A DNA stretch of 64,000 bases, taken from the NCBI GenBank assembly GCA_000004985.1, contig GG738861.1. One strand, 5' to 3'. Origin of the DNA: Naegleria gruberi (taxonomy: Eukaryota). This document shows, in pieces, positions 8,945 through 27,216 of this stretch. The stretch's first letter is position 1. Each line of letters begins with the position of its first letter. The position numbers and the translations under genes were made by a program. A model generated the notes under the pieces. That model saw only the letters and a list, made by a program, of their open reading frames with translations, did no database searches and was not told the DNA's origin.

Positions 8945-9844
8945 ATGAACAAACAAAGTGTTGTCCTCACTTTTGCAGTTATCTGCCTATTCTTCATTCA
9001 TAACCTGAATGCAATTTGGCCTTCTCAAATTATTGACCTTCGCAACTGGAAATTAACACTTCCTGTTGGTGAGCCTGGAGATGCTATGGAAATTAAACAA
9101 CCAACCTTGGATAGATACTCTCTCAATCCATATTTTGGTGCCACTACTAATAACACTGGTGTAAGATTCAGAGTGCTCATGTCCAACGTAACCGTCACAA
9201 CTTCCTCTAATACCAAATATGCAAGAAGTGAATTGAGAGAAATGGATTCTTCAAATCCTAGTAGCACTAAGGCAGCTTGGAATACCACGGTTGGTACTCA
9301 TACCATGATTATCGATCAAACCATTACAAGATTACCAACCACTAGAAAGAAGGTTATTGCTGGTCAAGTCCACGATGCAGATGAATATGTTGTAACCATC
9401 CATTTGGAAGGAACCAAGCTCTATATCAATATCGTAGGAGTTGGAACCACAACCATTTCCCAAAATTATATTGTTGGCACAAGATTCCAAATCAAGATTC
9501 AAGTTAAGAATGGAGTCACAAGTATTTATTACAATAATATGAATACTCCTATTTATTCTATTACAAAGAGTTATAAGGGAGCCTACTTCAAGGCAGGTTG
9601 TTATGCTCAATCTAATTGCGAATTTGAGGGAAGTTTATGTGGAAAATCAAATAATTATGCTGAAGTTGTAATTCATAACTTGACCATTACGCATGAATAC
9701 CCAAGCGTTCAAGCAAGAAATGGAATTCTCAATGGATGGTTTGCAAATATGATTACAAGTGATGGTGTTAGTTTTGGAACCTCTGGTTTGATTCAATTGG
9801 TGTATTCATGTTTGTTGGTTTTCTTATTTGTTATTTTTGCCTAA
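8945..9844 (+). CDS. Secreted polysaccharide lyase family 7 (alginate lyase 2 domain)-like protein with N-terminal signal peptide and C-terminal hydrophobic (GPI-anchor-like) tail, 299 aa
   Basis: The three PL7 signature blocks occur in the right order and spacing: RSELREM, IAGQVHD (QIH block), YFKAGCYAQS (YFKAG-Y-Q block). Signal peptide MNKQSVVLTFAVICLFFIHNLNA. Terminal LVYSCLLVFLFVIFA. Confidence 0.65.
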   Translation: MNKQSVVLTFAVICLFFIHNLNAIWPSQIIDLRNWKLTLPVGEPGDAMEIKQPTLDRYSLNPYFGATTNNTGVRFRVLMSNVTVTTSSNTKYARSELREMDSSNPSSTKAAWNTTVGTHTMIIDQTITRLPTTRKKVIAGQVHDADEYVVTIHLEGTKLYINIVGVGTTTISQNYIVGTRFQIKIQVKNGVTSIYYNNMNTPIYSITKSYKGAYFKAGCYAQSNCEFEGSLCGKSNNYAEVVIHNLTITHEYPSVQARNGILNGWFANMITSDGVSFGTSGLIQLVYSCLLVFLFVIFA

Positions 9845-9973: not shown

Positions 9974-12900
9974 ATGCAAAGAGTGATAACCAGCCAATCA
10001 AAAAAGAAACTCTCCTCATCACAACAATTTATTTGGTTGTCGCTCTCTCAACAAACCTCTTCTTCTTCATCAGCTGTTGCCGCCAATTTTTCAACAAGTC
10101 AAAATTTACTTGTCGATGAGAGGGATAAGAGATTTTCACATACCATTCTTCTTCCGAAATCAAATTTTAAAACAAAGGCTTCATTGGAGGAGGAACTTAC
10201 AATACAACAAATAAGTAGAGATTATGCCTATACTAAATTAAAGGAAGATAGATTGAAGAGTGGAGCAAAAAGATTTACACTTCATGATGGACCTCCATAT
10301 GCAAATGGTACTCTTCATACTGGTCACTTTTTGAACAAGGTATTGAAGGATATTACAAATAGATTTAAACTTCTTACTGGTCACTTGGTTGAATTTATTC
10401 CAGGTTGGGATTGTCACGGTTTACCAATTGAAAGTAAAGTATTCCAAGAAATTAAGAAGAAGAAAAAAGGAACTGAAGGAATTACAATTTCTGGAACTAA
10501 AGATCCAATTATTAGAAAATTAGCTAAAGATTTTGCTGAACAAGCAATTCAATCACAATTGAACGATTTTAAACGTTGGGGTGTTATGGGAGAATGGGAT
10601 AATCCATACAAGACTATGAATCCAACATTTGAAGCCCAACAATTGAGAATTTTCCTTGACATGTTAAATAAGAAATATATTTTCAGAGGAAAGAAACCTG
10701 TTTATTGGTCTCCATCGAGTGGAACTGCATTGGCTGAATCCGAATTGGAATATCCAGATGTACATATATCAAAATCATGTTATGTCTTATTCCCAATTAC
10801 TACATCAAATACTGAAATGTCTCAAAAGTATGGTGAATTATTTGCCACTGTGTGGACAACTACTCCTTGGACATTGATTGCCAACGAAGCCATTTCCTAC
10901 AATCAAGATATAGAATATTCAATTATTTATGACTCTGAAAAACATAGAAGACTTATTATTGCCTCAGAATTAATGAAAAGCGTTTGTGAAAAGACTGGTA
11001 TTAAGAATTTCACTGTTTTACAAGCTATGAAAGGAAAGGATCTCTTTGTTAATAATGATATTTTAATGGGAGATAAGGTGTCATCCTATGTTAATCCATT
11101 GACTTCCTCCGTTACAGATAAGAAACTTCCATTTTTGAATGGATCTCATGTTACAACTGAAGTTGGTACTGGTCTCGTTCACACAGCTCCAAATCACGGT
11201 ATTGAAGATTTCCAAGTTGTTAAAGATAATAGCTTACCAATTGGACCTTGCTTTGTTGATGAATATGGTAAATATAATTCTCAAACTCCACTCCCACACT
11301 TGATTGGTCTTCCTGTATTGAGTGTTGGTAATGAAAAGGTTGTTGAAATGTTGCAAGGAGATTTGTCACAATATTTGCTTCTCAAAGAAGATTATTCACA
11401 CAGATATCCATACGATTGGAGAACTAAACAACCAATTCTCATCAGAATGACTGAACAATGGTTTGCTGAATTGAAAGATTTGAAGAATGTTGCCAAGGAA
11501 TATGTCGATGAAAAGATTGAAATGATTCCAAGTTCAGGAAGAAATCGTCTCAAGTCCTTTGTTGAATCTAGAGATGAATGGTGTATTAGTAGACAAAGAA
11601 CATGGGGAGTTCCTATTCCAGTATTCTATAAGGAAAATAATCCTTCAGAATATTTAGCAACAAGTGAAAGTATTGAACATGTGATTAGTCTTGTTGAAAA
11701 GCATGGTACTGATTGTTGGTTTGAAATGAGTGAAGATCAACTGCTGTCTCCTCAATACAGAAATCAAGGATGGAAGAAGGGAACTGATACACTCGATGTA
11801 TGGTTTGACAGTGGTACAACCTGGTTTGGTGTTGTAAAGGCCTCTGGTATTCCTCTTCCAGCTGATGTTTATTTGGAAGGTTCTGATCAACATCGTGGTT
11901 GGTTCCAATCGTCACTTCTCACAAGTTTGGCCTATCAAGGTGTTCCTCCATACAAGAAGATTGTTACTCACGGTTTCGTTACTGATGAGGCTGGAAAGAA
12001 GATGAGTAAATCAATTGGTAACACAATTGAACCAGAATCAATCATTAGTAAGCAAGGTGTTGATGTATTGAGACTTTGGGTAAGCCATAGTGACTTTTCT
12101 GTAGATGTTTCAATTGGTAAGAATGTCATTGAAAAAGTTTCTACCAATTTGAAAAAGATCAGAAATACTGCCAAATTCATGTTGGGTGTATTGGAAAATT
12201 ATGATCCAAACTTGCCAGTCTCAAAGGAACAACTTGTTGAAGTTGACTATTATATTATCAATAGAGTTAAACAATTCTGTGATCAAATTACGGAAAGCTA
12301 TGAAAACTTTAACTATTACAAGGTTAATCAACTTTTAATGACATTTACTTATGAACTCTCTTCATTTTACTTGGATATTGTTAAGGATAGACTCTATTGT
12401 GGAGAGGAAGAGGCAAGAAAACCTTCTCAAAAAGTTATTCATTACATTTTGGATTGCTATACAAAGGCTCTCTCCCCAATCATTTGTCACACTGCTGAAG
12501 ATATTTATCAATCAATGGAATTCAAGAAGAATAAGAGTATTTTCGAAGAAGGGTGGTTCATTAAGCCAGAAGATTTCTTCCAAGGCATTGAACTCCCTCA
12601 AGAAGAAAAAACAACTGAAATGTTTAATCAAGTTATTGAATTGAGACAAGAAATATTCAAATTGATTGAAAAGGCAAGAATGGATAAGGTTTTCAGAACT
12701 TCCAACGAAGTCAAAGTAACCATCGAAAGTGTAGAATCAGAGAAATTGATTCAAGCCATTCAACCACTTCTCTCGCAAAGTACAAAACAAAATAAGAATA
12801 CTCAACTCGAAGATATTATGATGGTTTCATCAGTAGAATGGTTGAAAGGAATTAATCCTAATCCTCTCTACACTCTCCAATACGAAACCAGTTTAGATTC

Positions 12901-13036
12901 TAAAAAAGTTTCACTTTCCATTTCTAAGGCAGACCTTCATAAATGTCCTCGTTGTTGGAGGTTTGCGAGTGTTGTAGAGAATGAGCCTTGTGGAAGATGT
13001 GCTCATGTTTTGGAGCACAATCACCAATACCATTAG
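9974..13036 (+). CDS. Isoleucyl-tRNA synthetase, organellar (bacterial type 1) form with N-terminal targeting extension, 1020 aa
   Basis: HIGH motif region PPYANGTLHTGHFLNK. KMSKS motif KKMSKSIGN. C-terminal zinc knuckle CPRCWRF...CGRCAHV typical of bacterial/mitochondrial IleRS. S-rich N-terminal presequence. Confidence 0.9.
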   Translation: MQRVITSQSKKKLSSSQQFIWLSLSQQTSSSSSAVAANFSTSQNLLVDERDKRFSHTILLPKSNFKTKASLEEELTIQQISRDYAYTKLKEDRLKSGAKRFTLHDGPPYANGTLHTGHFLNKVLKDITNRFKLLTGHLVEFIPGWDCHGLPIESKVFQEIKKKKKGTEGITISGTKDPIIRKLAKDFAEQAIQSQLNDFKRWGVMGEWDNPYKTMNPTFEAQQLRIFLDMLNKKYIFRGKKPVYWSPSSGTALAESELEYPDVHISKSCYVLFPITTSNTEMSQKYGELFATVWTTTPWTLIANEAISYNQDIEYSIIYDSEKHRRLIIASELMKSVCEKTGIKNFTVLQAMKGKDLFVNNDILMGDKVSSYVNPLTSSVTDKKLPFLNGSHVTTEVGTGLVHTAPNHGIEDFQVVKDNSLPIGPCFVDEYGKYNSQTPLPHLIGLPVLSVGNEKVVEMLQGDLSQYLLLKEDYSHRYPYDWRTKQPILIRMTEQWFAELKDLKNVAKEYVDEKIEMIPSSGRNRLKSFVESRDEWCISRQRTWGVPIPVFYKENNPSEYLATSESIEHVISLVEKHGTDCWFEMSEDQLLSPQYRNQGWKKGTDTLDVWFDSGTTWFGVVKASGIPLPADVYLEGSDQHRGWFQSSLLTSLAYQGVPPYKKIVTHGFVTDEAGKKMSKSIGNTIEPESIISKQGVDVLRLWVSHSDFSVDVSIGKNVIEKVSTNLKKIRNTAKFMLGVLENYDPNLPVSKEQLVEVDYYIINRVKQFCDQITESYENFNYYKVNQLLMTFTYELSSFYLDIVKDRLYCGEEEARKPSQKVIHYILDCYTKALSPIICHTAEDIYQSMEFKKNKSIFEEGWFIKPEDFFQGIELPQEEKTTEMFNQVIELRQEIFKLIEKARMDKVFRTSNEVKVTIESVESEKLIQAIQPLLSQSTKQNKNTQLEDIMMVSSVEWLKGINPNPLYTLQYETSLDSKKVSLSISKADLHKCPRCWRFASVVENEPCGRCAHVLEHNHQYH

Positions 13037-13922: not shown

Positions 13923-15200
13923 ATGACCAACAAGAGAAATTCAAAGAGACTCTCCCAAGTCGATGAATCAGCAAATAATGGTGGTGCTTTAGGAGAAACA
14001 TATTTTGGTTCTCGTATTTGGTTGAATAATGTTGGAAAAGATGGACGTGCAACAAACACTGCAAGTGGAGGTGGTTACTTGTTTACCAATGAAGAAGAAA
14101 TTAAAGAACAACGTAAAGGTGTATGGGACATGGTCAAAAAACTCGGTGGAGCTTTATTGGAAGGAAAAGATCTTGTTTCCGTCTCGTTGCCAGTGTACAT
14201 TTTTGAACCTCGTAGTTTCTTGCAACGTTTGCCAGATATTTGGGCTTTCCACAGTCTTTTAACTGACGCTGCTGACCAAAAAGATCCTGTTCAAAGATTT
14301 ATTAGAATAATCGCTTTTGGTATTGCCGGATTACATCAAACGTGTGTCCAAAAGAAACCATTTAATCCAATTCTTGGTGAAACATTTGAAGGATCATTTA
14401 GTCACAGTAGTGATCCATCGAAGGATATTCATCTTTTTGTTGAGCAAACTTCTCATCACCCACCTATCACAGCTTATGAAGCTCAAGGAAAAGATTTTAG
14501 ACTCCACGGTTATTGTGGATACCAGGCTAGTATTAGAGGAAATGCATTGAAAGGAGGTCAAATAGGACCAACATTTATTGAATTTGAATCTGATGGTGCT
14601 GTTATTCAATATTCTCAACCACTCTTGTGGTTGAAGGGTATTTGTTGGGGAGACAGAGTTCTTGAATATTATGACAAGATGAGTTTTACTGATGCTAAAA
14701 ATCAATTAACTTGTGATATTCAATTTAATCCTGATCAAAAGAGTTTTCTTGGATCTTTCTTTAGTAGTCAAAAAACACCAGTTGATTATGTGAAAGGAGA
14801 AGTTAAGAAAGATGGTCAAGTTATCGGAGTTATTGAAGGAAGTTGGTTGGGAAATGTCTATTATTTACCAAATCAAACTTCTGATTCACTCTCATCAATG
14901 AAGGAAAAGGAAAAATCTGAATTAGAGAAATTAGAATTATTCAATATTGCAGCCCAAATGCCAAGATATTTAAGACCTTCTGATAATCCACTTCCATCCG
15001 ATGCTCGTTTCAGAGAAGATGCTGTTGCTCTTCGTAATGGAGATCAAGAATTGTCTCAATTAAAGAAGGAAGAATTAGAAAACAAACAAAGAAAGGAAAG
15101 ACAATTGAGAAAGACTGGAAGTAGCAAAACCAGCTTATCAAGTGCTAATTCTCAAAGCGGAACTGATTTAGTGACTGCTATTAATAACAACCAAAATTAA
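13923..15200 (+). CDS. Oxysterol-binding protein-related protein (short ORP, ligand-binding domain only), 425 aa
   Basis: OSBP fingerprint EQTSHHPPITAYE. ORD-domain length. ATG start. Confidence 0.85.
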   Translation: MTNKRNSKRLSQVDESANNGGALGETYFGSRIWLNNVGKDGRATNTASGGGYLFTNEEEIKEQRKGVWDMVKKLGGALLEGKDLVSVSLPVYIFEPRSFLQRLPDIWAFHSLLTDAADQKDPVQRFIRIIAFGIAGLHQTCVQKKPFNPILGETFEGSFSHSSDPSKDIHLFVEQTSHHPPITAYEAQGKDFRLHGYCGYQASIRGNALKGGQIGPTFIEFESDGAVIQYSQPLLWLKGICWGDRVLEYYDKMSFTDAKNQLTCDIQFNPDQKSFLGSFFSSQKTPVDYVKGEVKKDGQVIGVIEGSWLGNVYYLPNQTSDSLSSMKEKEKSELEKLELFNIAAQMPRYLRPSDNPLPSDARFREDAVALRNGDQELSQLKKEELENKQRKERQLRKTGSSKTSLSSANSQSGTDLVTAINNNQN

Positions 15201-15488
15201 GTCACTCCCGAGTCATTTTGTTCATCAAACTCTAATCTGTTCGATGAACTATCCAGCTTTGTACAGTAAAAATTTAAAATTATTTATTTAGTTTCTAATT
15301 ATTAATATTAATTATTAAATTATTAAGAAGATATTTGAATTTATTATTTATTCTAGCATGTTAGAATAATATTTCTTTTACAGAGTTTTGTGATTGGCGG
15401 GAAAATATCTACAAAATGTGTGTGGATCAATTTGAAGGAACAATCTAAGCACCAACTATTGATAACTTGCACAAAGAATACAAAAAAA

Positions 15489-16678
15489 ATGGGCAAGAAG
15501 AAACAATCCTCCAATCAAAAGAACAAGACCAAAGATGAAGATTCATCATGGGATGAAGTGGCACAAATGGCTGCTCGTAATGAAGTAGTAGAACAACAAG
15601 GAAAGAAAAAACAAAAATCATCTTCCGAACAATCCAATAATACAACAGCAACAAATAGTTCATCCAACAATACAACAGGTATACCTTTCACTGATCAACA
15701 AATTCGTCATCTTGTTGAAACTTTATCAGCTCGTTTGAAGAATGAAGAGAAGGCTGAATTGGAAACAATTGAACAAGAAACTGTAAAAACAATTTCCGAT
15801 TTAAAGCTTGAAGTAATGCAAAAGCTTGGAATGGATTCTTCTCAATCCGATAAATTAAAGACAGTAACTCAAGTTTTGGATAAACATTTTGATGGAGTTG
15901 CAAAGCAAAATTCAGAATTAAAACGTGAAAATGCTATTTTGACACTCCGATTGCAAACAAGTGAAATCAGAGGTGTAGAAGGTATGTAATTTAACAGATC
16001 TGTTGAAAGATTATTCACACAAAATTGATTTAATTAGTTGACAAACAACTTGCTACCGTAAAGGAACAAAAGGACAAACTTCAACAAATGTGCAATCTTT
16101 TACATGAAAATAATCAAGATATTCTCAATGCTTATGAAACAACAAAGAAGGAACATTCTGAAAAGTATGATTCATTGGCTAAGAAATTTTCTGATGCATT
16201 GGAAGATATTCGTGTAAAGATGGAAGCTCAAGCTGAGGAAAGAATTCAAGTCGAAAAGGAAAAGGAAACTCTTCATTATCAACTTGAAATTTACAAGCAA
16301 CAAATGGATCTAGTTGCAAGACAAGGTCAAAATGAAACAAAGAAGGTTTCCTTAGAAAAGCAATTATACGAGGCTAAATTTGAAGAATTGTTGGACTCCT
16401 TAACCAAGAAAGAAAAGGAAAATTTAACATTGAAAAAGAAAGTCGAAACAGCCAACCATGAAAGAAATATCATGTCCAAACAACTCAAAACATCACAATC
16501 CAAGATGGACGAATTCACAAAAACTGTCCAAGAAACCAAGAATAGTTTTGTTACATTCCAAAATAGGATTAATCATTTGGAAGAAGAGAATAAGGCATTG
16601 AGAGAAAAATTAAAGAAAACTCTTGGTTTAGATCAAGAGGTTAAAAAGAAAGCCACACCATCTGTACAAAATCAATAA
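15489..16678 (+). CDS. Coiled-coil protein (K/E/Q-rich, taxilin-like architecture?), 2 exons approx 15489..15981 and 16038..16678 (~377 aa)
   Basis: Track ORFs 15390..15989 (GTG-started) and 16088..16678 join through a GTATGT...TTAATTAG intron (15982..16037, phase 1). The junction reads ...IRGVE-V-DKQLATVKEQKDKLQQMCNLL... First true ATG at 15489 (MGKKKQSSNQ). Heptad-rich sequence throughout. Confidence 0.6.
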
Positions 16679-16687
16679 ATTATTAAC

Positions 16688-19600
16688 TTATTTATTCTTT
16701 TCATCTGAGAATAGCAAGATATGCAAGAGATCTTCATTTCTAACGTGGGCAAACTCGTTTTCATTAGAAATTGGAAACTTGAATGTACCATGCTTTAGAA
16801 CAAACACTTTGTGTACTTCATGACCTGTTTTGAATTTGACAATTTCTTTAAACTGGTCAAGTGTTGATGAGGATGGATAGTTAAGAATGAAATTGTCCTT
16901 AGTGTCATTATCAATGACCACATAGACACACTTGTTATTGTTTGGAACTGGCATAAGTTGTTGGTTAACCTTATTCCAATCAATATCCTTTCCAAACACA
17001 AAATTACCAAACATTTCAACATCATTAGTGGTAATTGGGTTGTCAAAGTTTGTTGTTTTGAGTGGAATTTCTGTTGCATGTGTTTGGAATACTTGTAATA
17101 ATTCACAAACAAAGTCAAGTTTTGGCCTCTTGGAAGGAGTTAATTGAATCATTGAAATTATTAATCTTTGAATCAAGTTTGGATAACCCAATTTTTGAAG
17201 AGTTTGGGCAATAGCAAAATGAGTCAGCGTTTCATTGGAAGAAACAGCTTGGTGGAATAGATATTTCTTTGAGCCTTCCTCTTCTTCTATGCTTACATCC
17301 AATTTAATTTCAATATCCAATGTTAGCAATTCAAATAAAACACAACCAAAACTGAAAATATCCACAGAGGTATCAAAAGAGGCTGTCTTTTTAACAATGA
17401 AAGCCATTTCAGGAGCAATAGTGATAGGAGAACCTCTGGCTGATACTGATTTGTCGTAATTCCAATTTCGCATCAGACCAAAATCACCAATTTTTGCAAT
17501 TTCTTTTCCATTCTTCTCAATATCTAATAAAATATTATCAGCCTTCAAATCTCTGTAAACAAAACATTTTGAATGCATATGTCGAATGCCATAAGCAATT
17601 TCTAATGCAATATTAAAAGCATTAGGTACAAATAAATTGCCTTGTTCTCTCAACTTGTCAATTCTGTCTCTCAAATTTTCCTTATATAAAGGCATGACAA
17701 TATAACACTGGAAGCCAACATTTGCCTGATCATAACCATAATCAATGTAAGGAACTAAATTATTGTGTTCTCCCAATTCTTGAACACATTTCACTTCTGT
17801 TAAAAAGTTATTCACGTCGTTCTCGAAATACACCAAGTGCAAAGTTTTGATAGCAAATTTCTTGGCAGTATCTCTATCAATAGCTTCATAGACTGTTCCT
17901 TGACCACCTTGTCCAACTCTACCACAAATAGTGTACTTGCCAATATTTCTCTCTTTTTGTCCATCGTTCAGGATCCAAATAGTCTGCTCTTGGAAACATT
18001 CCTTTGCAAGATATTCAATAATTATTTCAGGAAGTAAATTGTGGTGAAGAGAAACTTTGGAAAGGGATTCAATGAGCATATCGCCAAGTCTACGATATTC
18101 ACTTTTGATTAATAGTTTCAGTTCAAGTTCTTTTTGCTTTCTTGTGGCTCCAGACTTCATGTCCATTCTGGTAAGTTTGGCTTTGAATAATACAGAAATA
18201 ATTTCATTTCTCAAAATATCCATTACTGAACCTATCATTTGTCTTTCATTGGTATCATACACTACACTTGGATTAAATGTAAACATAGTTGGATTTTTCT
18301 TATATCTCTTAAAGAATAAGACATCCAGAGTTGAAAGTAGGACCACAACTAAAAACATGTCGACGACCATCGGGTCTGATTTAAGAAACATGGTTTTGAA
18401 TTTTCTTGCAAGAGAATACTTGTTATTGATACCGAACCAAGAAGTATAAATACCAATCAGTTGGTCATAATTGTCTGGAACTGACATTAGTTCAATTTTC
18501 CTCTCAATAACATGAATGCAGTTAGGTAATTGATGAAGTCTCAGAGATGGCATAGTTTGAGGTGCAGTTGGTAACTGATGTCTGTACATGTAATGATATA
18601 GAGATTTGGCAAAGAGTGTAAGCTTGTATTCGTCAAGAACAGAAATGAATTGCATGGAAAATAAGTGAGATTCGTTTTCCCTGAAAAATCCAAAGTTCCA
18701 ATGCATATCCTCTCCATTACCTAAACAATGGATATAGAATTCGACCATTTTTCTACATTCCTTTTTCTTTTCCATTTTCAATGAAGTTTTTTCAGTCATT
18801 CTGTTATCTGTAAAGTTCAAATAATTGTAGAATCTACTTAATTCATCCTTTACACCCAAATAATAATTCTCTGTTTGCTCAATTCTATCAATAATCTCTC
18901 CAAGAATGGTAACTTTTAATTCCTCTCCAATGTTTCTAATATTTCTCTTGTACTTGATTGAGTTACAAATAAAGGAAAAGTTTGGTTCCATATCCTTGAT
19001 CTTGAAATATAAATATCTCAATATGAAGGAGAATGGAATATAAGTCTCATCTACAGTAATTGTTTGTGTGTGTTTGTAACCCTCGAAAAATCTAGTGATA
19101 TCTCTGCATACTACCACAGATTTGTCCTTACAATGTACTCTCAAGAGATTGTGTACAAGTATTGATCTATTCGAGCAGGAACTAACTAGAGAAACTGAGG
19201 AGGCTACTTTCTCTGGTTTAGAATGTCTCCTTCCAAATAAGTAAACATCTTGAAAATCTGATACTAAATATACACAATCACTCTTATACCATCCACCTTC
19301 TGAGTCTGCTGTTAGTACATCAACAATCAAGTGGCTGTCTGTATTAATCAAAACAGGAATGTCACTATTTACACAAGCACCAGAAATGTAGACCTTATCA
19401 TTGGTAGTAAGAAAGCAGATATTGTCTTGAGTTGGATGAAGTGAGGTCACTCTATTCTTTTCCTTCTCAAAGAATGTTAACTCAACGGGTACACCCTTTA
19501 CATCTTCCTTATGCCCAAGACCCAGTTGGCCTCTATCATTCTTTCCATAAACCAAAATAACTCCCTTTCGTGAGAGCATGTAGAAACTGCTCGAAGATGC

Positions 19601-21361
19601 TTTCAGTTGGGCTATTGAATCATTTCCATCAAGAATTTCAAATATTCCAGGAAGTTCTGTTGGTTGTGAGATACATTCCTCAATAATATTTAAATTCAAA
19701 GAATCTGCAATAGCCTTGGAATAAATATCAGATAAATTTTCTCTATTGGATCTGTTTTTACCACAGACTAACACTCTACCTTCAGAAGTTAAAAATAATG
19801 TCCAATCATAACCACAATGCACATCAATAATCTTATCATTTTCTAAAGTAAAAATGAATTGAGGAGTTCCAATACCATGATTTTTGTTGTACAATCCCAA
19901 AGCGAGCTCACCATGTGAGTTACTGCCACAACCATACACTCTTCCCTCTCTCGTTAGAAACATAATGTGCCTATAACCAATGGAGACTTTGGTTATGTGT
20001 TCATTATCAAAGTTGAATGGAATTTTAGTAGGAATTGTTGGAGGTAGATGTTTAGTCTCTTCTTGAGCTGAGAGCATGGAACAGAATGTTGACTGGGCAA
20101 TATCTGATACAGAGTGAGCATATGATTTTGGACCTTCATCGAATCCTGTCAATGTGGCCTCCGAGGTCATGAATCCTAGAGATTTGAGAGATGTTTGCTG
20201 TTTATCGGCAGCAGAAATTGCAGATTTTGTCTTTCCATTTCCAATAAACTCTATTGGTGTTCCCTCAAAGATGAATTCATCTGTATGACCAACTCCCAGC
20301 ATTCCTCTCTCGTTAATTCCACAAGCCCAAACTTCATTATCATTAAGGACCATTACTGTACATGATTGAGCTGTTGCTATTATTCTACAATCTTCCAAAT
20401 TAAATTTGAAATCTTTCTTATTATTTACATTACTCTCAGGATCGAGATATTCGATTTGATTATCCTCTTGATGTTTTGATGTATTGTCCTTCTTCAATTT
20501 TAATCGAGCATAATTCTTAACCAAGTATTCCTGTTGATATTGAGGTATAAATGTCGAAGAGGCTGAAGAATTTGTTGAGGCCAAGCTTTTTACAGAGTTT
20601 CTTCTTGAGCTACTATTGGATCCAGTAAAAGTATTGGAGGAAATTGAGCTATTTGTGGCACGATCATCAAACACTGCATTTGATCCATTTCCCAAGAAAA
20701 AACATTCTTGATTTTGGTTAAATCCCTTACATAAAAGAAGAGGATAATCTACACCAGGTCCAGAGAAGTGAATTCCACCCTCGGAACCTGTACTAGAAGA
20801 TGATTGGGTTGATTCATTACCCTTCTTTTTTGAACTCTTACCAATTTTCTTCTCCGACATGTCTGGTAGCTTTTGAGATGGTACAAGTTCGAAAAGAGAA
20901 GGAAAATCAGCAAGTCTACTACGTGTTGATGAGTGTGGGTGTTGAAAGAAGGGAGTCATACTAGATGTTGATTTTGGACCTATAGATGAATTCGTCCTCA
21001 GTGTAGCATCCATATGATAATGAAATTGACCAGCTTGTTGTTGTGCTTGAGAATAATTCATTCCTCCGAACGTACTAATATTACTACTATTATTCGTTAT
21101 CGTCGTCGACTTGAATTTTCCTCCATCATTGTTCATTGAATAATTTGCAAAATTCATTGAAATATTGTGATGATTAACAATATCACTCGCACTCGATGTT
21201 GACAACTCATCGGACGTACTGGTTGCTGTTGTTGCAGTTGTTGTATTGCAATTGTTGGTGGATAGCATTGGTGAGAAAAGGTAAGAAATCCTCCACCGTA
21301 TGAAAAGATACTTTTTTTTGCTATTATGATTTGAACACATCGTAGTAAATGCTTCGTTCAA
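16688..21361 (-). CDS. Large multidomain protein: N-terminal S/T/N-rich region, several RCC1-like beta-propeller repeats, C-terminal Ser/Thr protein kinase domain (1557 aa)
   Basis: RCC1-type repeats (GINERGMLGVGHTDE, GCGSNSHGELALG, GKNDRGQLGLGHKED). Kinase subdomains GQGGQGTVYEA...AIK, HRDLKADNILLD (as VYRDLKADNILLD), DFG (IGDFGL), APE (IAPEMAF). True ATG start. Confidence 0.8.
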   Translation of the reverse strand: MNEAFTTMCSNHNSKKKYLFIRWRISYLFSPMLSTNNCNTTTATTATSTSDELSTSSASDIVNHHNISMNFANYSMNNDGGKFKSTTITNNSSNISTFGGMNYSQAQQQAGQFHYHMDATLRTNSSIGPKSTSSMTPFFQHPHSSTRSRLADFPSLFELVPSQKLPDMSEKKIGKSSKKKGNESTQSSSSTGSEGGIHFSGPGVDYPLLLCKGFNQNQECFFLGNGSNAVFDDRATNSSISSNTFTGSNSSSRRNSVKSLASTNSSASSTFIPQYQQEYLVKNYARLKLKKDNTSKHQEDNQIEYLDPESNVNNKKDFKFNLEDCRIIATAQSCTVMVLNDNEVWACGINERGMLGVGHTDEFIFEGTPIEFIGNGKTKSAISAADKQQTSLKSLGFMTSEATLTGFDEGPKSYAHSVSDIAQSTFCSMLSAQEETKHLPPTIPTKIPFNFDNEHITKVSIGYRHIMFLTREGRVYGCGSNSHGELALGLYNKNHGIGTPQFIFTLENDKIIDVHCGYDWTLFLTSEGRVLVCGKNRSNRENLSDIYSKAIADSLNLNIIEECISQPTELPGIFEILDGNDSIAQLKASSSSFYMLSRKGVILVYGKNDRGQLGLGHKEDVKGVPVELTFFEKEKNRVTSLHPTQDNICFLTTNDKVYISGACVNSDIPVLINTDSHLIVDVLTADSEGGWYKSDCVYLVSDFQDVYLFGRRHSKPEKVASSVSLVSSCSNRSILVHNLLRVHCKDKSVVVCRDITRFFEGYKHTQTITVDETYIPFSFILRYLYFKIKDMEPNFSFICNSIKYKRNIRNIGEELKVTILGEIIDRIEQTENYYLGVKDELSRFYNYLNFTDNRMTEKTSLKMEKKKECRKMVEFYIHCLGNGEDMHWNFGFFRENESHLFSMQFISVLDEYKLTLFAKSLYHYMYRHQLPTAPQTMPSLRLHQLPNCIHVIERKIELMSVPDNYDQLIGIYTSWFGINNKYSLARKFKTMFLKSDPMVVDMFLVVVLLSTLDVLFFKRYKKNPTMFTFNPSVVYDTNERQMIGSVMDILRNEIISVLFKAKLTRMDMKSGATRKQKELELKLLIKSEYRRLGDMLIESLSKVSLHHNLLPEIIIEYLAKECFQEQTIWILNDGQKERNIGKYTICGRVGQGGQGTVYEAIDRDTAKKFAIKTLHLVYFENDVNNFLTEVKCVQELGEHNNLVPYIDYGYDQANVGFQCYIVMPLYKENLRDRIDKLREQGNLFVPNAFNIALEIAYGIRHMHSKCFVYRDLKADNILLDIEKNGKEIAKIGDFGLMRNWNYDKSVSARGSPITIAPEMAFIVKKTASFDTSVDIFSFGCVLFELLTLDIEIKLDVSIEEEEGSKKYLFHQAVSSNETLTHFAIAQTLQKLGYPNLIQRLIISMIQLTPSKRPKLDFVCELLQVFQTHATEIPLKTTNFDNPITTNDVEMFGNFVFGKDIDWNKVNQQLMPVPNNNKCVYVVIDNDTKDNFILNYPSSSTLDQFKEIVKFKTGHEVHKVFVLKHGTFKFPISNENEFAHVRNEDLLHILLFSDEKNK

Positions 21362-21517: not shown

Positions 21518-22258
21518 ATGCCAAAAACACCAAAGAAGACGCCAAAGAAAAAGTCAAAAACTGCTGCAGAAGTCACTTCATCATCTTTAACGGAAGAAAC
21601 TTTAACAATACCGAATGATCATTTGACTAGTACTGTGGTGGTGGGATCAATGACAAAAACAAAGAGAAAACCAAAAACGCCAAAACCAAAAACACCTAGG
21701 AAAAAGGTTGCACCAAAGAATGAAAATCGAGAATTGTTGGATAGTGATTCGGAATCGGAGGTGGTTGATGGATCATCTAGTAAAATATCATCAAAGGATG
21801 CTAAAAAATTGGAGGCCATGAGAGCTAGAATGGACCTTTTGGAAAGAGACAATTATATTGGAACTGGAGGACGTACCTTTAGTGTGAATTTTGATGATAA
21901 TGAAGAGTGGAACAATACAGAGGTAATTTCTTCTCCAAAGAAGGGAGGAACAAAACGAAAGAAGAAGGATGATGATGATGAACCAAATTCAAAAAAGAAG
22001 AAAACTGAGACTGGAAAAAAGTCACGTTCAGTCAAATTTACCAGAAGAAAATTTGATCAAGTTCTGAAAATGGATAAGATTGAATCCTCTTCAAGTCCAA
22101 ATTATTTCACAATACTTTCTCAACCATCGATTTTACCTCAAAGAAAATTCTGTTCCATTACTGGATTCAAAGCTAATTATACATGCCCACACAGTGGAGC
22201 TCATTATTTGAGCGTGGAGGCCTATGGTCACGTGAAAAAGAACTATCAACTTGAATAG
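21518..22258 (+). CDS. YL1_C-domain protein (INO80 complex Ies6 / INO80C-like), basic K/P-rich N-terminus, 246 aa
   Basis: C-terminal FCSITGFKANYTCPHSGAHYLSVEAYGHVKKNY matches the YL1 C-terminal domain pattern (C-I/A-ITG-x-A-x-Y-x-P-x-S/TG-x-Y). Lysine/proline-rich N-terminal half. Confidence 0.6.
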   Translation: MPKTPKKTPKKKSKTAAEVTSSSLTEETLTIPNDHLTSTVVVGSMTKTKRKPKTPKPKTPRKKVAPKNENRELLDSDSESEVVDGSSSKISSKDAKKLEAMRARMDLLERDNYIGTGGRTFSVNFDDNEEWNNTEVISSPKKGGTKRKKKDDDDEPNSKKKKTETGKKSRSVKFTRRKFDQVLKMDKIESSSSPNYFTILSQPSILPQRKFCSITGFKANYTCPHSGAHYLSVEAYGHVKKNYQLE

Positions 22259-22349: not shown

Positions 22350-24972
22350 TTATCTTCTTCTGTTGTTTGTTGGTTTGCTTTCAGCAAGTTTTGCCTCAAG
22401 TTCTTGTTTCTCCTTATCCTTGTCTTCCTTGGTCTTCTTCCTGTATTTGAGTGGAAGTTTTTGAGTGAATTGTTTCATCTTCAAGTCATCTTGTTTGTAA
22501 ATTGGATCAATTTTGGAAAGTGGTGAAATGAATTCCTCCAACTCTATAGGGCGTTCAATGATTTTTTTAAGCCTTCTTTCATTCAATACAGAATCGCAAA
22601 TAAGTTTGATATTGGAAACTGTATAGTTGGTTGCAATATGTGCAAGAGTGTGCAAATCAAAATCTTCCCTCAATGGTTTACCAATTCTCTCCTCGATAAA
22701 TGCTTTCCAAATCATTCTGTATGATGCATAATCTGGTAAGGTTGTATAGACCATCTTATCAAAGAATTCATCGAAAAGGGCTGGATCAGCATCCCAAGGT
22801 TCATCCATAGATCCAACAATAAGAATTCTGTCCTCAGGAGCCAGTGCCTTCATTTGAGTGACGAGTGGCTTTCTGAATCTCTTCATGTTTGGTTTAGTTT
22901 TACCCTTACCCTTTCCCTTAATCACTGTGTCAAAATCATCGATATAGATAATGGCAGGTTGCATTTCCTTGGCAACACGGAATATTTTTGCAATCATTGT
23001 AGTGGTCTCGCTCTGTTCGGTATTAATGTTTTGTGTAATTGCAGGTGACAAATCAAAGAATAAAGCTCCCAACTCGTGAGCGATTGAGTGTACCAAGCTT
23101 GTCTTGCCTGTTCCCTTATGTCCATAGAACATGACCGATCTTAAAAGTGGTGCTAACTTGTGAACATTTGGAGTAGACATGTACAAGACAATTTCCTTGC
23201 AAAAGTTTCGTATTTGGAAAATAGAAGGTTCTTCCCACTCAAGAATAGAACCTATCAATCTATTTTCTCCAATGTAAGAATCGAGCTTTTTAGGTGGAAC
23301 CTTATTAATAATGCCTAGAGAAGCAAGCTCAGAGAAGAAGGCTTCAGAGTTTGGCACCTTAACAGGTTCTTTTTCAGGTTTCGTTGGTTGAGGTTTTCCA
23401 GGCTTAGTTTCCCTCTTTGGAGGGTTTTCACTTTCCAATTGCATTCTGATATTTTCCAATTCTTCACGAATTTGTTTGTCAACCTTTTTTCTTATTTCCT
23501 CCTCAATACCAGAATCACCCTCCATCAACTCTTTTCTCAAAAGTAAAGGATCATATTTTTGATCAAAATCGAGTGATGAATATCTATCTCTCCACTTTTC
23601 CACAAATGATTTCAAAATATTTGCAATATTGGCAATAAACTTCGATTCGTCCTTAAATTTTGGTTCCTCTTCAACAGGTCCCTCTTTTCCTTTTGTTGGT
23701 GGTTTTGGCTTTGGTTTTGGAGGAGCTTTTTGATTTCCTTTTGGTTTTGGTTGATTGGCTTGCTGCTTTTGTTCTTGGAGAAGTTTCTTTTGTTCCTCAG
23801 TGGCATTCATAATGTTTTGCATGAAAGCTTTAGAACCTCCTTCAGCCTCAGAAGGAAAACTTGGTATTCCTCCATCACCTTCTTGTCTGTACAATAGGAT
23901 TTGTTCCATTAAAGCATCATGCATCTCTTCCATCATATGAGGACCTTCATCTTCAAGAATTTTAGCTCTCAATCTAACTCTTTGTTCCTCCAATTCTCTC
24001 TTATTGTCTGCTTGTTTGATTTTTCTCTTGGCCCTTCCCAAATTTTCAGCATTTACAATTTTAACTTCTCGGGTTTCTTCATATTCAATGGTTGGTGAAG
24101 AGTCCTCAACTGAAACATCCTTAGCTTTCTTTTTTGTTTGTTTTGGTTCCTCAGTTGACATTCCAATAAATTTTGCTTCCTCTTGCTTTTCCCTAGCAAC
24201 TCTCTTTCTCCAATAATAACCACGAAAAACTTTTTGAATTTTGACGGCAGCTTCATCTATCAAAGATTCAGATTCTTCCTTTTTTTGATGTTGTTTTCTT
24301 TCTTCTGAGAGTTTTTGGTCATACTTGCTTCTTGCCAACTTTCTTCCCTGTCTTGCTCTTTCATTGGTTTGGATGATGAGGATGGCTTGATTTATAGTCA
24401 TGGCTGGTTGAGATTTCTTTGTATCGATAACTGGCTCACTTCTATAATCACCATTTGAGTTTGGTCTTTTTCTCAAAACATCCAACAAGATTTCTCTTCT
24501 CCTTTTTTCCTTATCATTATCTTCAATGATGAAATGAGGAGTTCTTAATTCGAGGGCAGTCGGATCCAATTTCAAATCAATTAATACATCATCAAATTCA
24601 CTGTACTCCCCGAGTAGCGTATTTACAAGGGCTTTAACTTCAAGTATTCTTCCCATAACATGTTCCAAAACAACCTTCAGGTCTTCTCTTTTTTGAGGTT
24701 GAAGGAGTTGATCATAACATTCCTAATGATGACGATTGATTGGTTATCACAACTATAATACTATTATCGAAATACCATACCTCTAACTTGTTGTATAGAT
24801 TAATATATTTTACATAGAGAGACTGGTAGTGCTGATTAAATACATGTTGTTGCTCGATAGGATTTTTTGGAAGATTGGCTTTTGATGATACCTGAGTTTC
24901 TCCAATTAAAATCAAGTCTCTCAATTCTACAAGCACTTCCGAGAGTTGTCCCTCATAATAATTGTTTGACAT
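22350..24972 (-). CDS. IQCA1: IQ-motif + AAA ATPase domain protein (IQCA1 / dynein regulatory complex DRC11-like), 2 exons approx 24781..24972 and 22350..24722 (~855 aa)
   Basis: Track ORF 22350..24668 starts at TTG. It extends upstream in frame to the acceptor cattag|GAATGT and joins ORF 24712..24972 (true ATG) via a GTATGG...TAG intron (24723..24780, 58 nt, phase 0). IQ motif IQKVFRGYYWRKRVAREKQ. AAA Walker A GHKGTGKTSLVHSIAHE. Long E/K-rich coiled region. Confidence 0.75.
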
Positions 24973-25857: not shown

Positions 25858-27216
25858 ATGCCTTCAAGTGGAAGTCTCTTTCGCACAGTGAAAAACAATT
25901 TTTGTAGTAACATTGCAAAACAACACTACCAAGGCAGTAGAAATATTCTGAAAAAACGCTCACAAGGTTCCGATTATTATCAATCTTGGAGATTTTATTC
26001 TACTACCACTAGAACTTTATCGGAATTAAATAATAATGTACAACAAGAGAATGAAATTTATGTTTGGGGATCAATAGGAGAACAATCCATCCCTAAACCA
26101 ATTAGAGTTTTCGAAAATAATCCAGAGAAGAATCGAGTGTTTTTTGATGGTCAAAAGATTGTTGATGTGGCCTGTGGATCGGAACATGTATTATTCTTGA
26201 GTGAGAGTGGAATGTTATATGCATTAGGAGGGAATCAGTATGGTCAATGTGGAAAGAGTCCTAGTTCGGAACAATTTGTACGAGAACCAACTAGAATTAA
26301 AGTTGTGGATGAATCCAACCAGGAAATGACATTCAAATCGATATTTTGTGGAAGAGATTCAAATTATGCAATCAGTAGTGATGGAACAAGCCTTTGTGTA
26401 TTTGGATTAAATGATACTGCTCAGTTAGGATTGGGATTTAGTAAGATTGGATTTTCGTATGTTCCTAGATTTGTTAAATTGCCAAAATCCAATGAGGACG
26501 ACCAACCAAGAATTATGAATGTTTATTGCGGATCTAGGCACATGTTTATTAGGTGTAAATATGAACAATCTAATGTTGAGAAACTATTTTGTTGGGGTGG
26601 AAATCAGTTTGGTCAATTGGGATTAGGTCACTTATTTAATCAGAATGATATTGTACAGATGCAATTGCCAACAGACCTAAAAGTGCCAGAAACTAGCATT
26701 TCCAGTGGAATGTCGCACACAATAGCATATTCACAGAGTAAGGCTTTCAGTGTTGGAAGAGGAACAGAGGGTCAACTTGGATTTACTGCTAAACAAGCAC
26801 CAATGTGGAGAGAAATTTCAGATCTCTCAGGACTCCATATTAAGCATATAATAAGTGGAGTGAATCATAACATGGCAAATGTGAGCTCAGAAAAACTGGG
26901 CGGTGAACAAATAATTGGTTGGGGAACAAACATTTTCTATGGATCTCAATGCACTCCAGAAATTATTGACATTCCTTCGTATGGAAAATTTGCACCAAAA
27001 AATTCAATTGACTTGATGACAAGTGGTTTATTTCATTCATTGTTGAGAGTGGATGGAGAGAAACTGTATGCTATTGGAAATGGTCAAAGCTTTCAGTTGG
27101 GACAAAATGAACGAAGCAACTCTGAATCTAAGCTAGTTCAAGTACTGCATCCAAATGTTAGAGGAATAAGAAAAATAGCCTCTGGATTTTCACTAAATAT
27201 TACCATTGGTGAATAA
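25858..27216 (+). CDS. RCC1-repeat (beta-propeller) protein with mitochondrial-presequence-like N-terminus (RCC1L/WBSCR16-like?), 452 aa
   Basis: At least five RCC1-like repeats (VWGSIGEQ, GGNQYGQCGKS, FGLNDTAQLGLG, WGGNQFGQLGLGH, GRGTEGQLGF). N-terminus is rich in R/K/S and has no acidic residues (MPSSGSLFRTVKNNFCSNIAKQHYQGSRNILKKRSQ). Confidence 0.75.
   Translation: MPSSGSLFRTVKNNFCSNIAKQHYQGSRNILKKRSQGSDYYQSWRFYSTTTRTLSELNNNVQQENEIYVWGSIGEQSIPKPIRVFENNPEKNRVFFDGQKIVDVACGSEHVLFLSESGMLYALGGNQYGQCGKSPSSEQFVREPTRIKVVDESNQEMTFKSIFCGRDSNYAISSDGTSLCVFGLNDTAQLGLGFSKIGFSYVPRFVKLPKSNEDDQPRIMNVYCGSRHMFIRCKYEQSNVEKLFCWGGNQFGQLGLGHLFNQNDIVQMQLPTDLKVPETSISSGMSHTIAYSQSKAFSVGRGTEGQLGFTAKQAPMWREISDLSGLHIKHIISGVNHNMANVSSEKLGGEQIIGWGTNIFYGSQCTPEIIDIPSYGKFAPKNSIDLMTSGLFHSLLRVDGEKLYAIGNGQSFQLGQNERSNSESKLVQVLHPNVRGIRKIASGFSLNITIGE

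What the first reader, a model, noticed from the sequence alone, without database searches (positions are those of the whole stretch)
16688..21361. RCC1 beta-propeller fused to a Ser/Thr kinase in a single 1557-aa intronless ORF
The N-terminal third is S/T/N-rich. The middle has at least five RCC1-type repeats. The C-terminal ~300 aa are a complete protein kinase (Gly loop GQGGQGTVYEA, VYRDLKADN catalytic loop, DFG, APE). RCC1-kinase fusions are uncommon. The architecture suggests a GTPase- or chromatin-linked kinase rather than a canonical cell-cycle kinase.
Basis: partly seen in the sequence, partly recalled or inferred. Interest (0 to 1): 0.5.

Follow-up and report, generated by a model that had tools for sequence, protein, structure and literature searches.

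The report
Naegleria RCC1-propeller protein kinase gene
This is a real, intact gene of the amoeba Naegleria gruberi for a large signalling enzyme that joins an RCC1-type propeller to an active protein kinase. It belongs to a small, undescribed family found so far only in Naegleria and its relative Willaertia, so it is moderately unusual but not a new kind of system.

Summary
Window 16688..21361 (minus strand) is one stop-free reading frame of 1557 codons. It is identical to Naegleria gruberi 'predicted protein' NAEGRDRAFT_66150, which is 1526 aa starting at the ATG at 21268.

The layout, in ORF numbering:
- aa 32-320: Ser/Asn/Thr-rich low-complexity head.
- aa ~321-760: RCC1-like propeller. 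About five blades are supported; later ones are degenerate. It carries an ~80-aa insert of its own.
- aa 761-1140: about 380 aa predicted helical, with no known homologue.
- aa 1143-1418: protein kinase with every catalytic residue present and a YRD (not HRD) catalytic loop.

An exhaustive search found the same order (propeller, long linker, kinase) in one Naegleria fowleri and two Willaertia magna proteins, plus a metagenome fragment with only the linker and kinase. All three full-length relatives add a C-terminal pseudokinase that the window protein lacks. This rules out a fused gene model or a misassembly.

The kinase fits no established group and shows no specific affinity to NEK kinases. 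The 'GTPase- or chromatin-linked' reading is untested speculation.

Verdict: a lineage-specific variant of a known theme (kinases with an RCC1-like domain, such as NEK8/NEK9). Interest is modest.

The parts
16688..21361 (-). Whole stop-free reading frame (1557 codons from TTG, stop codon included)
16688..21268 (-). Annotated single-exon CDS of NAEGRDRAFT_66150 (1526 aa from the ATG at 21268, plus stop)
   Evidence: 100% identity to P0001; ATG position
20402..21268 (-). N-terminal Ser/Asn/Thr-rich low-complexity region (ORF aa 32-320). No Pfam match; presumed disordered.
   Evidence: composition; no Pfam family at E<=10
19082..20401 (-). RCC1-like beta-propeller domain (ORF aa ~321-760). Sequence support covers aa 324-665 (window 19367-20392). 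Hairpin motifs by eye include VWACGINERGMLGVG, VYGCGSNSHGELALG, VLVCGKNRSN and ILVYGKNDRGQLGLG, followed by degenerate VYISGACVNSD and VYLFGRRHSK.
   Evidence: Pfam; PDB sequence hits to UVR8/RPGR/HERC2; AF2 model; Foldseek hits to RLD structures, E 6e-17 to 1e-13. Blades after aa ~670 are low confidence.
20006..20248 (-). Insert of ~80 aa inside the propeller (ORF aa ~372-452), absent from the three full-length relatives
   Evidence: alignment A1; pLDDT <40 in the model; stop-free, with codon-position GC like the rest of the gene
17942..19081 (-). Linker of ~380 aa (ORF aa 761-1140), predicted all-helical at low confidence. The distal part (aa ~891-1130) is collinear with the relatives' linkers. 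It contains the most hydrophobic 19-mer of the protein (aa 999-1017).
   Evidence: no Pfam or PDB match; AF2 helices at pLDDT 25-56; weak collinear match, single-comparison E 0.005-0.016; phmmer alignments to P0059 and P0077 run ~70 aa upstream of the kinase; hydrophobicity
17108..17935 (-). Protein kinase domain (ORF aa 1143-1418). Gly loop 17891-17914, FAIK lysine 17840-17857, alphaC Glu 17789-17806, catalytic loop VYRDLKADN 17534-17560, DFG 17477-17485, APE 17408-17416, family motif LIQRLIISMIQ 17144-17176.
   Evidence: Pfam Pkinase 2.1e-39; motif coordinates; PDB matches; AF2 pLDDT 60-88
16691..17107 (-). C-terminal tail of 139 aa (ORF aa 1419-1557) with no assignable family. It stands where the relatives carry a pseudokinase. 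The predicted beta-beta-alpha-beta pattern is low confidence.
   Evidence: no Pfam or PDB hit; no similarity to the relatives' pseudokinase; AF2 pLDDT <45

Best explanation
The gene encodes a large, probably cytoplasmic, multidomain Ser/Thr protein kinase of Naegleria gruberi. It is a deep-branching member of a small family seen so far only in the heterolobosean amoebae Naegleria and Willaertia. The family layout is: RCC1-like propeller, long helical linker, catalytically competent RD-type kinase.

Proposed mechanism (inferred by analogy, not shown): the propeller acts as a protein-interaction, targeting or autoinhibitory module for the kinase, as the RCC1-like domains of NEK8 and NEK9 do. The Ser/Thr-rich disordered head and the activation segment (DFGLMRNWNYDKSVSARGSPITIAPE) would be sites of regulatory phosphorylation. 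The kinase would phosphorylate Ser/Thr substrates brought in by the propeller and linker.

The three full-length relatives carry a C-terminal pseudokinase that probably regulates the active domain. The window paralogue lacks it and ends in a short, unrelated tail.

Shown here: the ORF, the domains, the intact catalytic residues, and the family with its shared domain order. Inferred: everything about regulation, substrates and location.
For: - Intact 1557-codon frame against a maximum of 156 codons in shuffles, identical to the public single-exon model.
- Pfam RCC1, RCC1_2 and WD40_RLD at aa 324-665, and Pkinase at aa 1143-1416.
- The propeller model matches UVR8, HERC2, RCC2, RPGR and RCC1 structures at E 6e-17 to 1e-13.
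- All catalytic motifs are present. DLKxxN and GSPxxxAPE are the Ser/Thr type (established kinase subdomain knowledge).
- Exhaustive phmmer against 1.84 billion representatives found P0061 and P0077 (Willaertia magna), P0100/P0192 (N. fowleri) and P0059 (metagenome fragment) as the best single-domain kinase matches (organisms).
- Kinase blastp scores are 158-195 bits over the full domain for family members, against 103 bits or less over the first ~210 residues for any other kinase in hand.
- The three full-length relatives have Pfam RCC1-type hits N-terminal and Pkinase at aa ~930-1230, and they align along their length with the window protein.
- In a neighbour-joining tree the five family kinases form a clade in 200/200 bootstraps, and the window protein is sister to the other four in 200/200.
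- The relatives' second domain has the catalytic Asp replaced by N, G or H.
- The autoinhibition and targeting role of RCC1-like domains in NEK8/NEK9 is taken from PMC12564199.
Against: - There are no expression, localisation or biochemical data for this gene. Literature and supplement searches for its identifiers found nothing.
- The NEK analogy is architectural only. Domain order is reversed, and the kinase shows no specific NEK affinity.
- Propeller blades after aa ~670 and ring closure are not established.
- The proximal linker (aa 745-890) shows no detectable similarity to the relatives, and the distal linker only weak similarity.
- The tree uses few sequences and a simple distance method, so the basal position could be a long-branch effect.
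- A conserved, very hydrophobic helix in the linker could mean membrane association, which the cytoplasmic picture does not predict.
Confidence: 0.6

Rival explanations
1. GTPase-coupled kinase. The propeller binds a small GTPase such as Ran, or exchanges its nucleotide, possibly on chromatin. The kinase is then switched or positioned by that GTPase.
For: RCC1 is the Ran exchange factor, and the NEK9 RCC1-like domain binds Ran (PMC12564199). Naegleria encodes about 182 Ras-like GTPases (PMC9928731). The domain is clearly RCC1-like.
Against: The best sequence and fold matches are UVR8, RPGR and HERC2 RLDs, ahead of RCC1 itself. Only three repeats pass the Pfam RCC1 model, and WD40_RLD stays under its cut-off. 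There is an ~80-aa insert and the late blades are degenerate. NEK9 itself is not an exchange factor (PMC12564199).
Confidence: 0.15
2. Membrane-tethered kinase. The conserved hydrophobic helix in the linker (aa 999-1017) is a membrane anchor or a transmembrane segment, placing the kinase at a membrane, or making the protein receptor-like with the propeller on the far side.
For: The most hydrophobic 19-mer of every family member lies at the equivalent linker position (Kyte-Doolittle mean 1.66-2.43, against 2.49 for the true TM of the RCC1-EGF-TM-kinase protein P0115). In each case a Lys/Arg-containing flank follows on the kinase side. P0115 shows that propeller-TM-kinase receptors exist.
Against: None of the four full-length N-termini looks like a signal peptide, and about 1000 aa would have to cross the membrane without one. 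The N. gruberi helix contains two Asp residues. The relatives have a Lys inside the stretch, which leaves only about 12 uninterrupted hydrophobic residues in P0192 and P0077. The segment sits within a predicted helical region (low confidence).
Confidence: 0.1
3. Divergent NEK-family kinase: a NEK8/NEK9-like gene with its domains permuted.
For: NEK8 and NEK9 are the known kinases with RCC1 repeats (PMC12564199). NEK1 is among the top profile hits in the PDB (110 bits), and NEK7 appears among the Foldseek hits.
Against: With the single sequence, no NEK is among the best 60 PDB hits. With the family profile, JAK, CDPK, NEK1, PknB, PKC-theta, FERONIA, CTR1 and CDK11 all score 100-117 bits, so there is no preference. 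The domain order is reversed. The catalytic loop is YRDLKADN.
Confidence: 0.05
4. Annotation or assembly artefact, or a decaying paralogue. Either two genes were read through as one, or the gene is a dying copy that lost its pseudokinase.
For: The window protein is only 24-27% identical overall to its relatives and lacks their C-terminal pseudokinase. No close orthologue was retrieved.
Against: The frame is 1557 codons with no stop, about ten times the shuffled maximum. Composition is even across the gene. All catalytic residues are intact. The same domain order occurs in three other full-length proteins from two species. The stop of the convergent taxilin-like ORF lies 9 bp from this gene's stop, so no exon is missing downstream.
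Confidence: 0.05

Closest known systems
NEK8 and NEK9 (Nercc1), NIMA-related kinases with RCC1-like repeats
   Same: One polypeptide combines an active Ser/Thr kinase with an RCC1-like beta-propeller. In the NEKs, the propeller autoinhibits and localises the kinase (PMC12564199), which is the working model adopted here.
   Different: In the NEKs the kinase is N-terminal and the propeller C-terminal; here the order is reversed and about 380 aa of helical linker lie between them. The kinase shows no specific NEK affinity. The relatives add a pseudokinase that the NEKs lack.
Uncharacterised heterolobosean proteins FDP41_000648 (N. fowleri, XP_044569462.1) and ABK040_002523 / ABK040_001477 (Willaertia magna, KAL9645324.1 / KAL9651531.1)
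   Same: They share the order propeller, long linker, kinase. Kinase identity is 34-40% on blastp local alignments (35-40% on the trimmed alignment used for the tree), with shared motifs such as LIQRLIISMIQ and FL(M/F)H(E/Q)A. They also share a hydrophobic helix at the same linker position, and have similar lengths of 1513-1551 aa.
   Different: They end in a pseudokinase domain of about 300 aa. The window protein instead has an unrelated 139-aa tail, a much longer low-complexity head and an ~80-aa propeller insert. It branches outside the other four family kinases, the fourth being the metagenome fragment P0059.
RCC1-like-domain proteins in general (RCC1, UVR8, RPGR, HERC1/2, RCBTB, Alsin)
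   Same: They share the seven-blade RCC1-type propeller fold. The best matches are UVR8, RPGR and HERC2 RLDs.
   Different: None of those carries a protein kinase. Exchange-factor or UV-B-sensing functions cannot be transferred on fold alone. I suspected by eye a BTB-like segment after the propeller, as in RCBTB, but no search supported it.
Tandem kinase / pseudokinase proteins such as JAKs
   Same: The relatives pair an active kinase with a pseudokinase in one chain. A JAK-family chain (deposited as 'Tyrosine-protein kinase') is the top profile hit because both of its domains match.
   Different: In JAKs the pseudokinase precedes the kinase and the enzymes are tyrosine kinases. Here the pseudokinase follows the kinase, the signature is Ser/Thr type, and the window protein has no pseudokinase at all.

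Membership tests
Eukaryotic protein kinase superfamily (active ePK) | Significant match to the Pkinase profile across both lobes | tested here: met
   PF00069 2.1e-39, 135.9 bits against a cut-off of 31.7, aa 1143-1416 matching profile positions 1-255 of 263. Foldseek matches kinase structures with TM-scores of 0.6-0.72 relative to the target.
Eukaryotic protein kinase superfamily (active ePK) | Catalytic residues present: GxGxxG, VAIK Lys, alphaC Glu, (H/Y)RD Asp, catalytic Asn, DFG Asp, APE | tested here: met
   GQGGQG 1150-1155, FAIK, FLTEVK, VYRDLKADN 1268-1276, DFG 1293-1295, APE 1316-1318. Actual enzyme activity cannot be tested here.
RCC1-like domain (RLD) proteins | Tandem RCC1 repeats recognised by the family profiles | tested here: met
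   PF00415 8.4e-23 (81 bits against 21.7; 3 stretches) and PF13540 4.2e-22 (3 stretches). The whole-domain model PF25390 scores 127.8 bits, below its cut-off of 150.
RCC1-like domain (RLD) proteins | Closed seven-bladed beta-propeller | tested here: inconclusive
   The AF2 model (mean pLDDT 50.6) gives five to six blades, with confidence only up to aa ~670. Foldseek aligns it to whole RLD structures, TM-score 0.5-0.59 relative to the target. Blades 6-7 are seen only as degenerate motifs.
RCC1 proper (Ran guanine-nucleotide exchange factor) | Closest relationship to RCC1 orthologues, with exchange and chromatin-binding determinants | tested here: not met
   UVR8, RPGR and HERC2 outrank RCC1 in the sequence and fold searches. 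The exchange-factor residues themselves were not examined.
NEK (NIMA-related) kinases | Kinase domain specifically closest to NEKs | tested here: not met
   No NEK is among the best 60 PDB hits for the single sequence. With the family profile, NEK1 (110 bits) cannot be separated from CDPK, JAK, PknB, PKC, FERONIA, CTR1 and CDK11 (100-117 bits).
NEK (NIMA-related) kinases | N-terminal kinase followed by accessory domains | tested here: not met
   The kinase lies at aa 1143-1418 of 1557, downstream of the propeller.
Heterolobosean propeller-linker-kinase family (defined here) | Kinase domain clusters with P0059, P0061, P0077 and P0192 to the exclusion of other kinases | tested here: met
   158-195 bits over the full domain, against 103 bits or less for other kinases. 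Clade recovered in 200/200 NJ bootstraps with a limited outgroup.
Heterolobosean propeller-linker-kinase family (defined here) | Same order: RCC1-like domain, linker of ~400 aa, kinase | tested here: met
   Pfam on P0192, P0077 and P0061; full-length alignment.
Heterolobosean propeller-linker-kinase family (defined here) | C-terminal pseudokinase after the kinase | tested here: not met
   The window protein has a 139-aa tail with no similarity to the relatives' pseudokinase. No remnant is present in the window.
Heterolobosean propeller-linker-kinase family (defined here) | Homologous linker | tested here: inconclusive
   The distal linker is collinear but weak (single-comparison E 0.005-0.016). 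The proximal linker shows nothing. About 70 aa directly upstream of the kinase are included in the phmmer alignments.

The most novel reading that the evidence does not exclude
The family is a previously unrecognised, heterolobosean-specific kinase lineage. In it, an N-terminal RCC1-like propeller reads the state of a small GTPase or a membrane or cytoskeletal partner, and controls a kinase/pseudokinase pair through a helical linker that may be membrane-associated. The N. gruberi gene would then be a natural variant that swapped the pseudokinase for a small tail, possibly ubiquitin-like in fold. It would be a ready-made comparison for how the pseudokinase regulates the active domain.
Probability: 0.12. 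Interest if true: 0.5.

Novelty: new variant of a known kind. Interest (0 to 1): 0.3.

Why it matters
If the family is what it seems, it adds an independent case of an RCC1-like propeller being recruited to control a protein kinase. This case has the opposite domain order to NEK8/NEK9 and uses an unrelated kinase lineage. That would show the combination arose more than once.

Because one member is present in the pathogen Naegleria fowleri (FDP41_000648) and the kinase has no close animal counterpart, the family could be of some interest as a lineage-specific signalling component or drug target.

For genome annotation, the result upgrades a 'predicted protein' to a defined multidomain kinase and groups it with three 'hypothetical' proteins. 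Otherwise it is one of many lineage-specific domain combinations in the large kinome of Naegleria (265 predicted kinases, PMC9928731), with no functional data.

Tried and rejected
- Word-indexed homologue searches returned only generic kinases or RCC1 proteins. They failed even to return the query itself or members of the query alignment, so their negatives carry little weight.
- A metagenome scan with the family alignment used catalytic-loop patterns and found only generic kinases, none extending into the linker.
- An exact look-up of the protein in the contig collection found nothing.
- Pfam on the head, linker and tail separately gave no families at E<=10.
- PDB sequence searches with the linker, the linker profile and the tail gave only chance-level hits: an LRR protein at E 0.25, guanine deaminase at E 0.085, and none.
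- I suspected a BTB-like segment after the propeller (as in RCBTB) from reading the relatives' sequences. No profile or HMM search supported it, so I dropped it.
- I suspected a ubiquitin-like or DCX-like fold for the tail from its beta-beta-alpha-beta pattern. The model there has pLDDT <45, so it remains a guess.
- The tail as a remnant of the relatives' pseudokinase is rejected (hhalign probability 0.1%; no remnant by tblastn).
- AlphaFold with only 4-5 aligned sequences gave usable confidence only for the kinase and about five blades. No structural search of the linker or tail was therefore meaningful.
- The AFDB library was unavailable.
- Literature and supplement searches for the gene identifiers found nothing.
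- The neighbouring stand-alone RCC1-like gene (25858-27216) was considered as a source of the propeller by local duplication. It is only 26% identical over 174 aa, less than the 39-45% identity of the best-scoring RCC1-repeat proteins in the exhaustive search, so this is rejected.

Full report

Yes. The tool lists one ORF at 16688..21361 on the minus strand, 1557 codons from a TTG. That frame contains only its terminal stop. The other five frames over the same span hold 74-162 stops, and the longest stop-free run in 20 shuffles of the window is 156 codons. GC content is even across the gene (0.33-0.36 in 2-kb windows). The three codon positions differ in GC in every segment, with the third position lower than the first.

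The first in-frame ATGs are at 21340 (aa 8) and 21268 (aa 32). The public protein P0001 is 1526 aa and 100% identical, so the annotated gene is a single exon from 21268 to the stop at 16688. P0001 is 'predicted protein [Naegleria gruberi]', NAEGRDRAFT_66150, XP_002678620.1, UniProt D2VBA8. The window is therefore N. gruberi nuclear DNA.

**2. Anatomy (ORF numbering)**

Pfam gives Pkinase at aa 1143-1416 (2.1e-39). It gives RCC1 (8.4e-23, 3 stretches), RCC1_2 (4.2e-22, 3 stretches) and the whole-domain RLD model at aa 324-665 (7.9e-37). The RLD match covers about five blades' worth of the profile and falls below that model's own cut-off.

The FAIK lysine and the alphaC glutamate are present too. 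DLKxxN and GSPxxxAPE are the Ser/Thr-type signatures. The loop reads YRD rather than HRD, and the Arg before the catalytic Asp makes it an RD kinase (established kinase knowledge).

Three parts have no Pfam family at E<=10:
- The head, aa 32-320 (S 18%, N 10%, T 9%).
- A region of about 380 aa between propeller and kinase.
- A tail after the kinase (138 aa submitted, aa 1420-1557).

So the kinase is not C-terminal and the low-complexity head is a fifth of the protein, not a third.

**3. Structure**

With 4-5 aligned family sequences, AlphaFold gave only partial confidence.

- The propeller model has mean pLDDT 50.6. It shows five to six four-stranded blades, reasonably confident for aa ~320-349 and 444-669.
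- Foldseek matches that model to UVR8, HERC2 RLDs, RCC2, RPGR and RCC1 at E 6e-17 to 1e-13.
- An insert of about 80 aa (aa ~372-452), absent from the relatives, is modelled as disordered.
- In the second model the kinase has pLDDT 60-88. The linker is all-helical at pLDDT 25-56. The tail shows a beta-beta-alpha-beta pattern at pLDDT <45.
- Foldseek with the second model returns kinases of every group.

**4. Relatives**

The word-indexed searches were uninformative. The exhaustive phmmer of aa 360-1557 against 1.84 billion representatives found no full-length orthologue other than the protein itself. Most of the best 150 hits are proteins with many RCC1 repeats.

The best single-domain kinase hits are P0059, P0061, P0077 and P0100. 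Look-up shows the following:
- P0061 and P0077 are Willaertia magna hypothetical proteins of 1551 and 1513 aa.
- P0100 clusters with N. fowleri FDP41_000648 (P0192, 1524 aa).
- P0059 is a metagenome fragment.

P0192, P0077 and P0061 have Pfam RCC1-type hits near the N-terminus and Pkinase at aa ~930-1230. They align with the window protein along its length at 24-27% identity, with kinase motifs such as LIQRLIISMIQ shared.

Kinase blastp scores are 158-195 bits over the whole domain for these proteins. For any other kinase in hand the score is 103 bits or less, over the first ~210 residues only. In a neighbour-joining tree the five form a clade in 200/200 bootstraps. P0061+P0059 and P0077+P0192 pair in 200/200, and the window protein is sister to all four in 200/200. 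The caveats are few taxa, a distance method and a possible long-branch effect.

The three full-length relatives end in a second kinase-like domain whose catalytic Asp is replaced by N, G or H, which makes it a pseudokinase. The window protein's tail is unrelated to it, and no remnant exists anywhere in the window. The convergent taxilin-like ORF stops 9 bp from this gene's stop, so nothing is missing downstream.

The distal linker (aa ~891-1130) aligns collinearly with the relatives' linkers but only weakly (single-comparison E 0.005-0.016). The proximal linker shows nothing. The roughly 70 aa just upstream of the kinase are included in the phmmer alignments.

**5. What kind of kinase?**

It could not be assigned to any established group.
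- With the single sequence, the best PDB hits are a CDPK (72.8 bits), MET, CDK11 and bacterial PknB-type kinases (about 62 bits). No NEK is in the best 60.
- With the family profile, JAK, CDPK, NEK1, PknB, PKC-theta, FERONIA, CTR1 and CDK11 all fall within 100-117 bits.

On this evidence it is not a NEK. It behaves as an orphan lineage.

**6. How it most likely works**

The shown facts are an intact gene, an RCC1-like propeller, an apparently competent Ser/Thr kinase, and a conserved family architecture.

The mechanism is inferred. In NEK9, the RCC1-like domain binds and autoinhibits the kinase and serves as a scaffold; in NEK8 it is thought to target the kinase and similarly restrain it (PMC12564199). 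The most economical reading is that the propeller here is likewise a docking, targeting or autoinhibitory module. The Ser/Thr-rich head and the activation segment would be phospho-regulatory sites. In the relatives, the pseudokinase would be an extra regulatory partner. I give this about 0.6.

The rivals are:
RCC1 precedent supports it, but the nearest propellers are UVR8, RPGR and HERC2, and several blades are degenerate.
- Membrane-tethered protein (about 0.1). The most hydrophobic 19-mer of every family member sits at the same linker position (Kyte-Doolittle 1.66-2.43) with a basic flank on the kinase side. Against this, no member has a signal peptide and the stretch contains charged residues.
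- Permuted NEK (about 0.05).
- Artefact or decaying copy (about 0.05).

**7. Comparison with what is known, and novelty**

The closest characterised analogues are NEK8 and NEK9. They share the components but have the opposite order and a different kinase lineage. The closest actual relatives are three uncharacterised heterolobosean proteins.

I found no paper mentioning the gene or the family. The Naegleria pangenome paper only counts 265 kinases and 18 RCC1/UVR8-like genes.

I rate it a new variant of a known kind: a lineage-specific propeller-linker-kinase(-pseudokinase) family, with the window gene as a divergent member lacking the pseudokinase. Lineage-specific domain shuffling in protist kinomes is common, and nothing here overturns expectations, so interest is modest (0.3).

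**8. Limits**

- Orthologues at 50% identity or more in other Naegleria species would be hidden by the clustering of the exhaustive library.
- The best-150 list is crowded by RCC1-repeat proteins, so more distant family members could have been missed.
- Blade number, linker fold and tail fold remain open.

Noticed in passing
window 25858-27216 (+): A stand-alone 452-aa RCC1-like protein (WD40_RLD 1.9e-50, RCC1 6.2e-37) lies about 4.5 kb from the propeller-kinase gene. It is only 26% identical to aa 444-617 of that protein, so a recent local duplication is unlikely.
   Followed up: partly
window 15390-15989 and 16088-16678 (+): Two adjacent same-strand ORFs of 199 and 196 aa. The second matches Taxilin (8.2e-14, profile positions 75-253 of 302), so they may be one coiled-coil gene split by a short intron. 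The stop at 16676-16678 is 9 bp from the stop of the convergent kinase gene, so the 3' ends must overlap or abut.
   Followed up: no
window 8945-9844 (+): A 299-aa ORF matches Alginate_lyase2 (PF08787, 6.1e-37). From my own knowledge this family is mostly bacterial, so it is a possible horizontally acquired gene in the amoeba.
   Followed up: no
window 21518-22258 (+): A YL1_C-domain protein (YL1 nuclear protein C-terminal domain, 5.3e-08) is transcribed divergently from the kinase gene. Only about 250 bp separate the two ATGs, which suggests a shared bidirectional promoter region.
   Followed up: no
ORF aa 999-1017 (window ~18311-18367, minus strand), and the equivalent positions in P0192, P0077, P0061 and P0059: The most hydrophobic 19-residue window of every family member falls at the same place in the linker (Kyte-Doolittle 1.66-2.43), with a Lys/Arg-containing flank after it. 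It could be a buried core helix or a membrane anchor; this is unresolved.
   Followed up: partly
P0115 (JGI metagenome protein, 1188 aa) and P0177 (Chromosphaera perkinsii, 1277 aa): Other ways of combining RCC1 repeats with a kinase turned up. One is an RCC1-repeat ectodomain, then EGF-like Cys-rich repeats, a TM helix and a kinase (receptor-like). The other has a kinase followed by an RCC1 domain (NEK-like order).
   Followed up: partly
rest of the window: The other large ORFs are ordinary eukaryotic genes: M16 peptidase (6543-8336), class I aminoacyl-tRNA synthetase (9974-13036), oxysterol-binding protein (13923-15200), AAA ATPase (22350-24668), RFC1 (28100-30916), apyrase (35153-36592), MUS81 (47818-50742), DEAD-box helicase (50900-52714) and a 1762-aa kinesin (57485-62773). 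Three ORFs of 450-780 aa have no Pfam match at E<=1e-5 (4110-6446, 32201-33598, 33673-35034).
   Followed up: no
tool behaviour: The word-indexed protein search did not return the query's own database entry when given a substring of it. It also did not return members of the query alignment. Its negative results should not be read as absence.
   Followed up: yes
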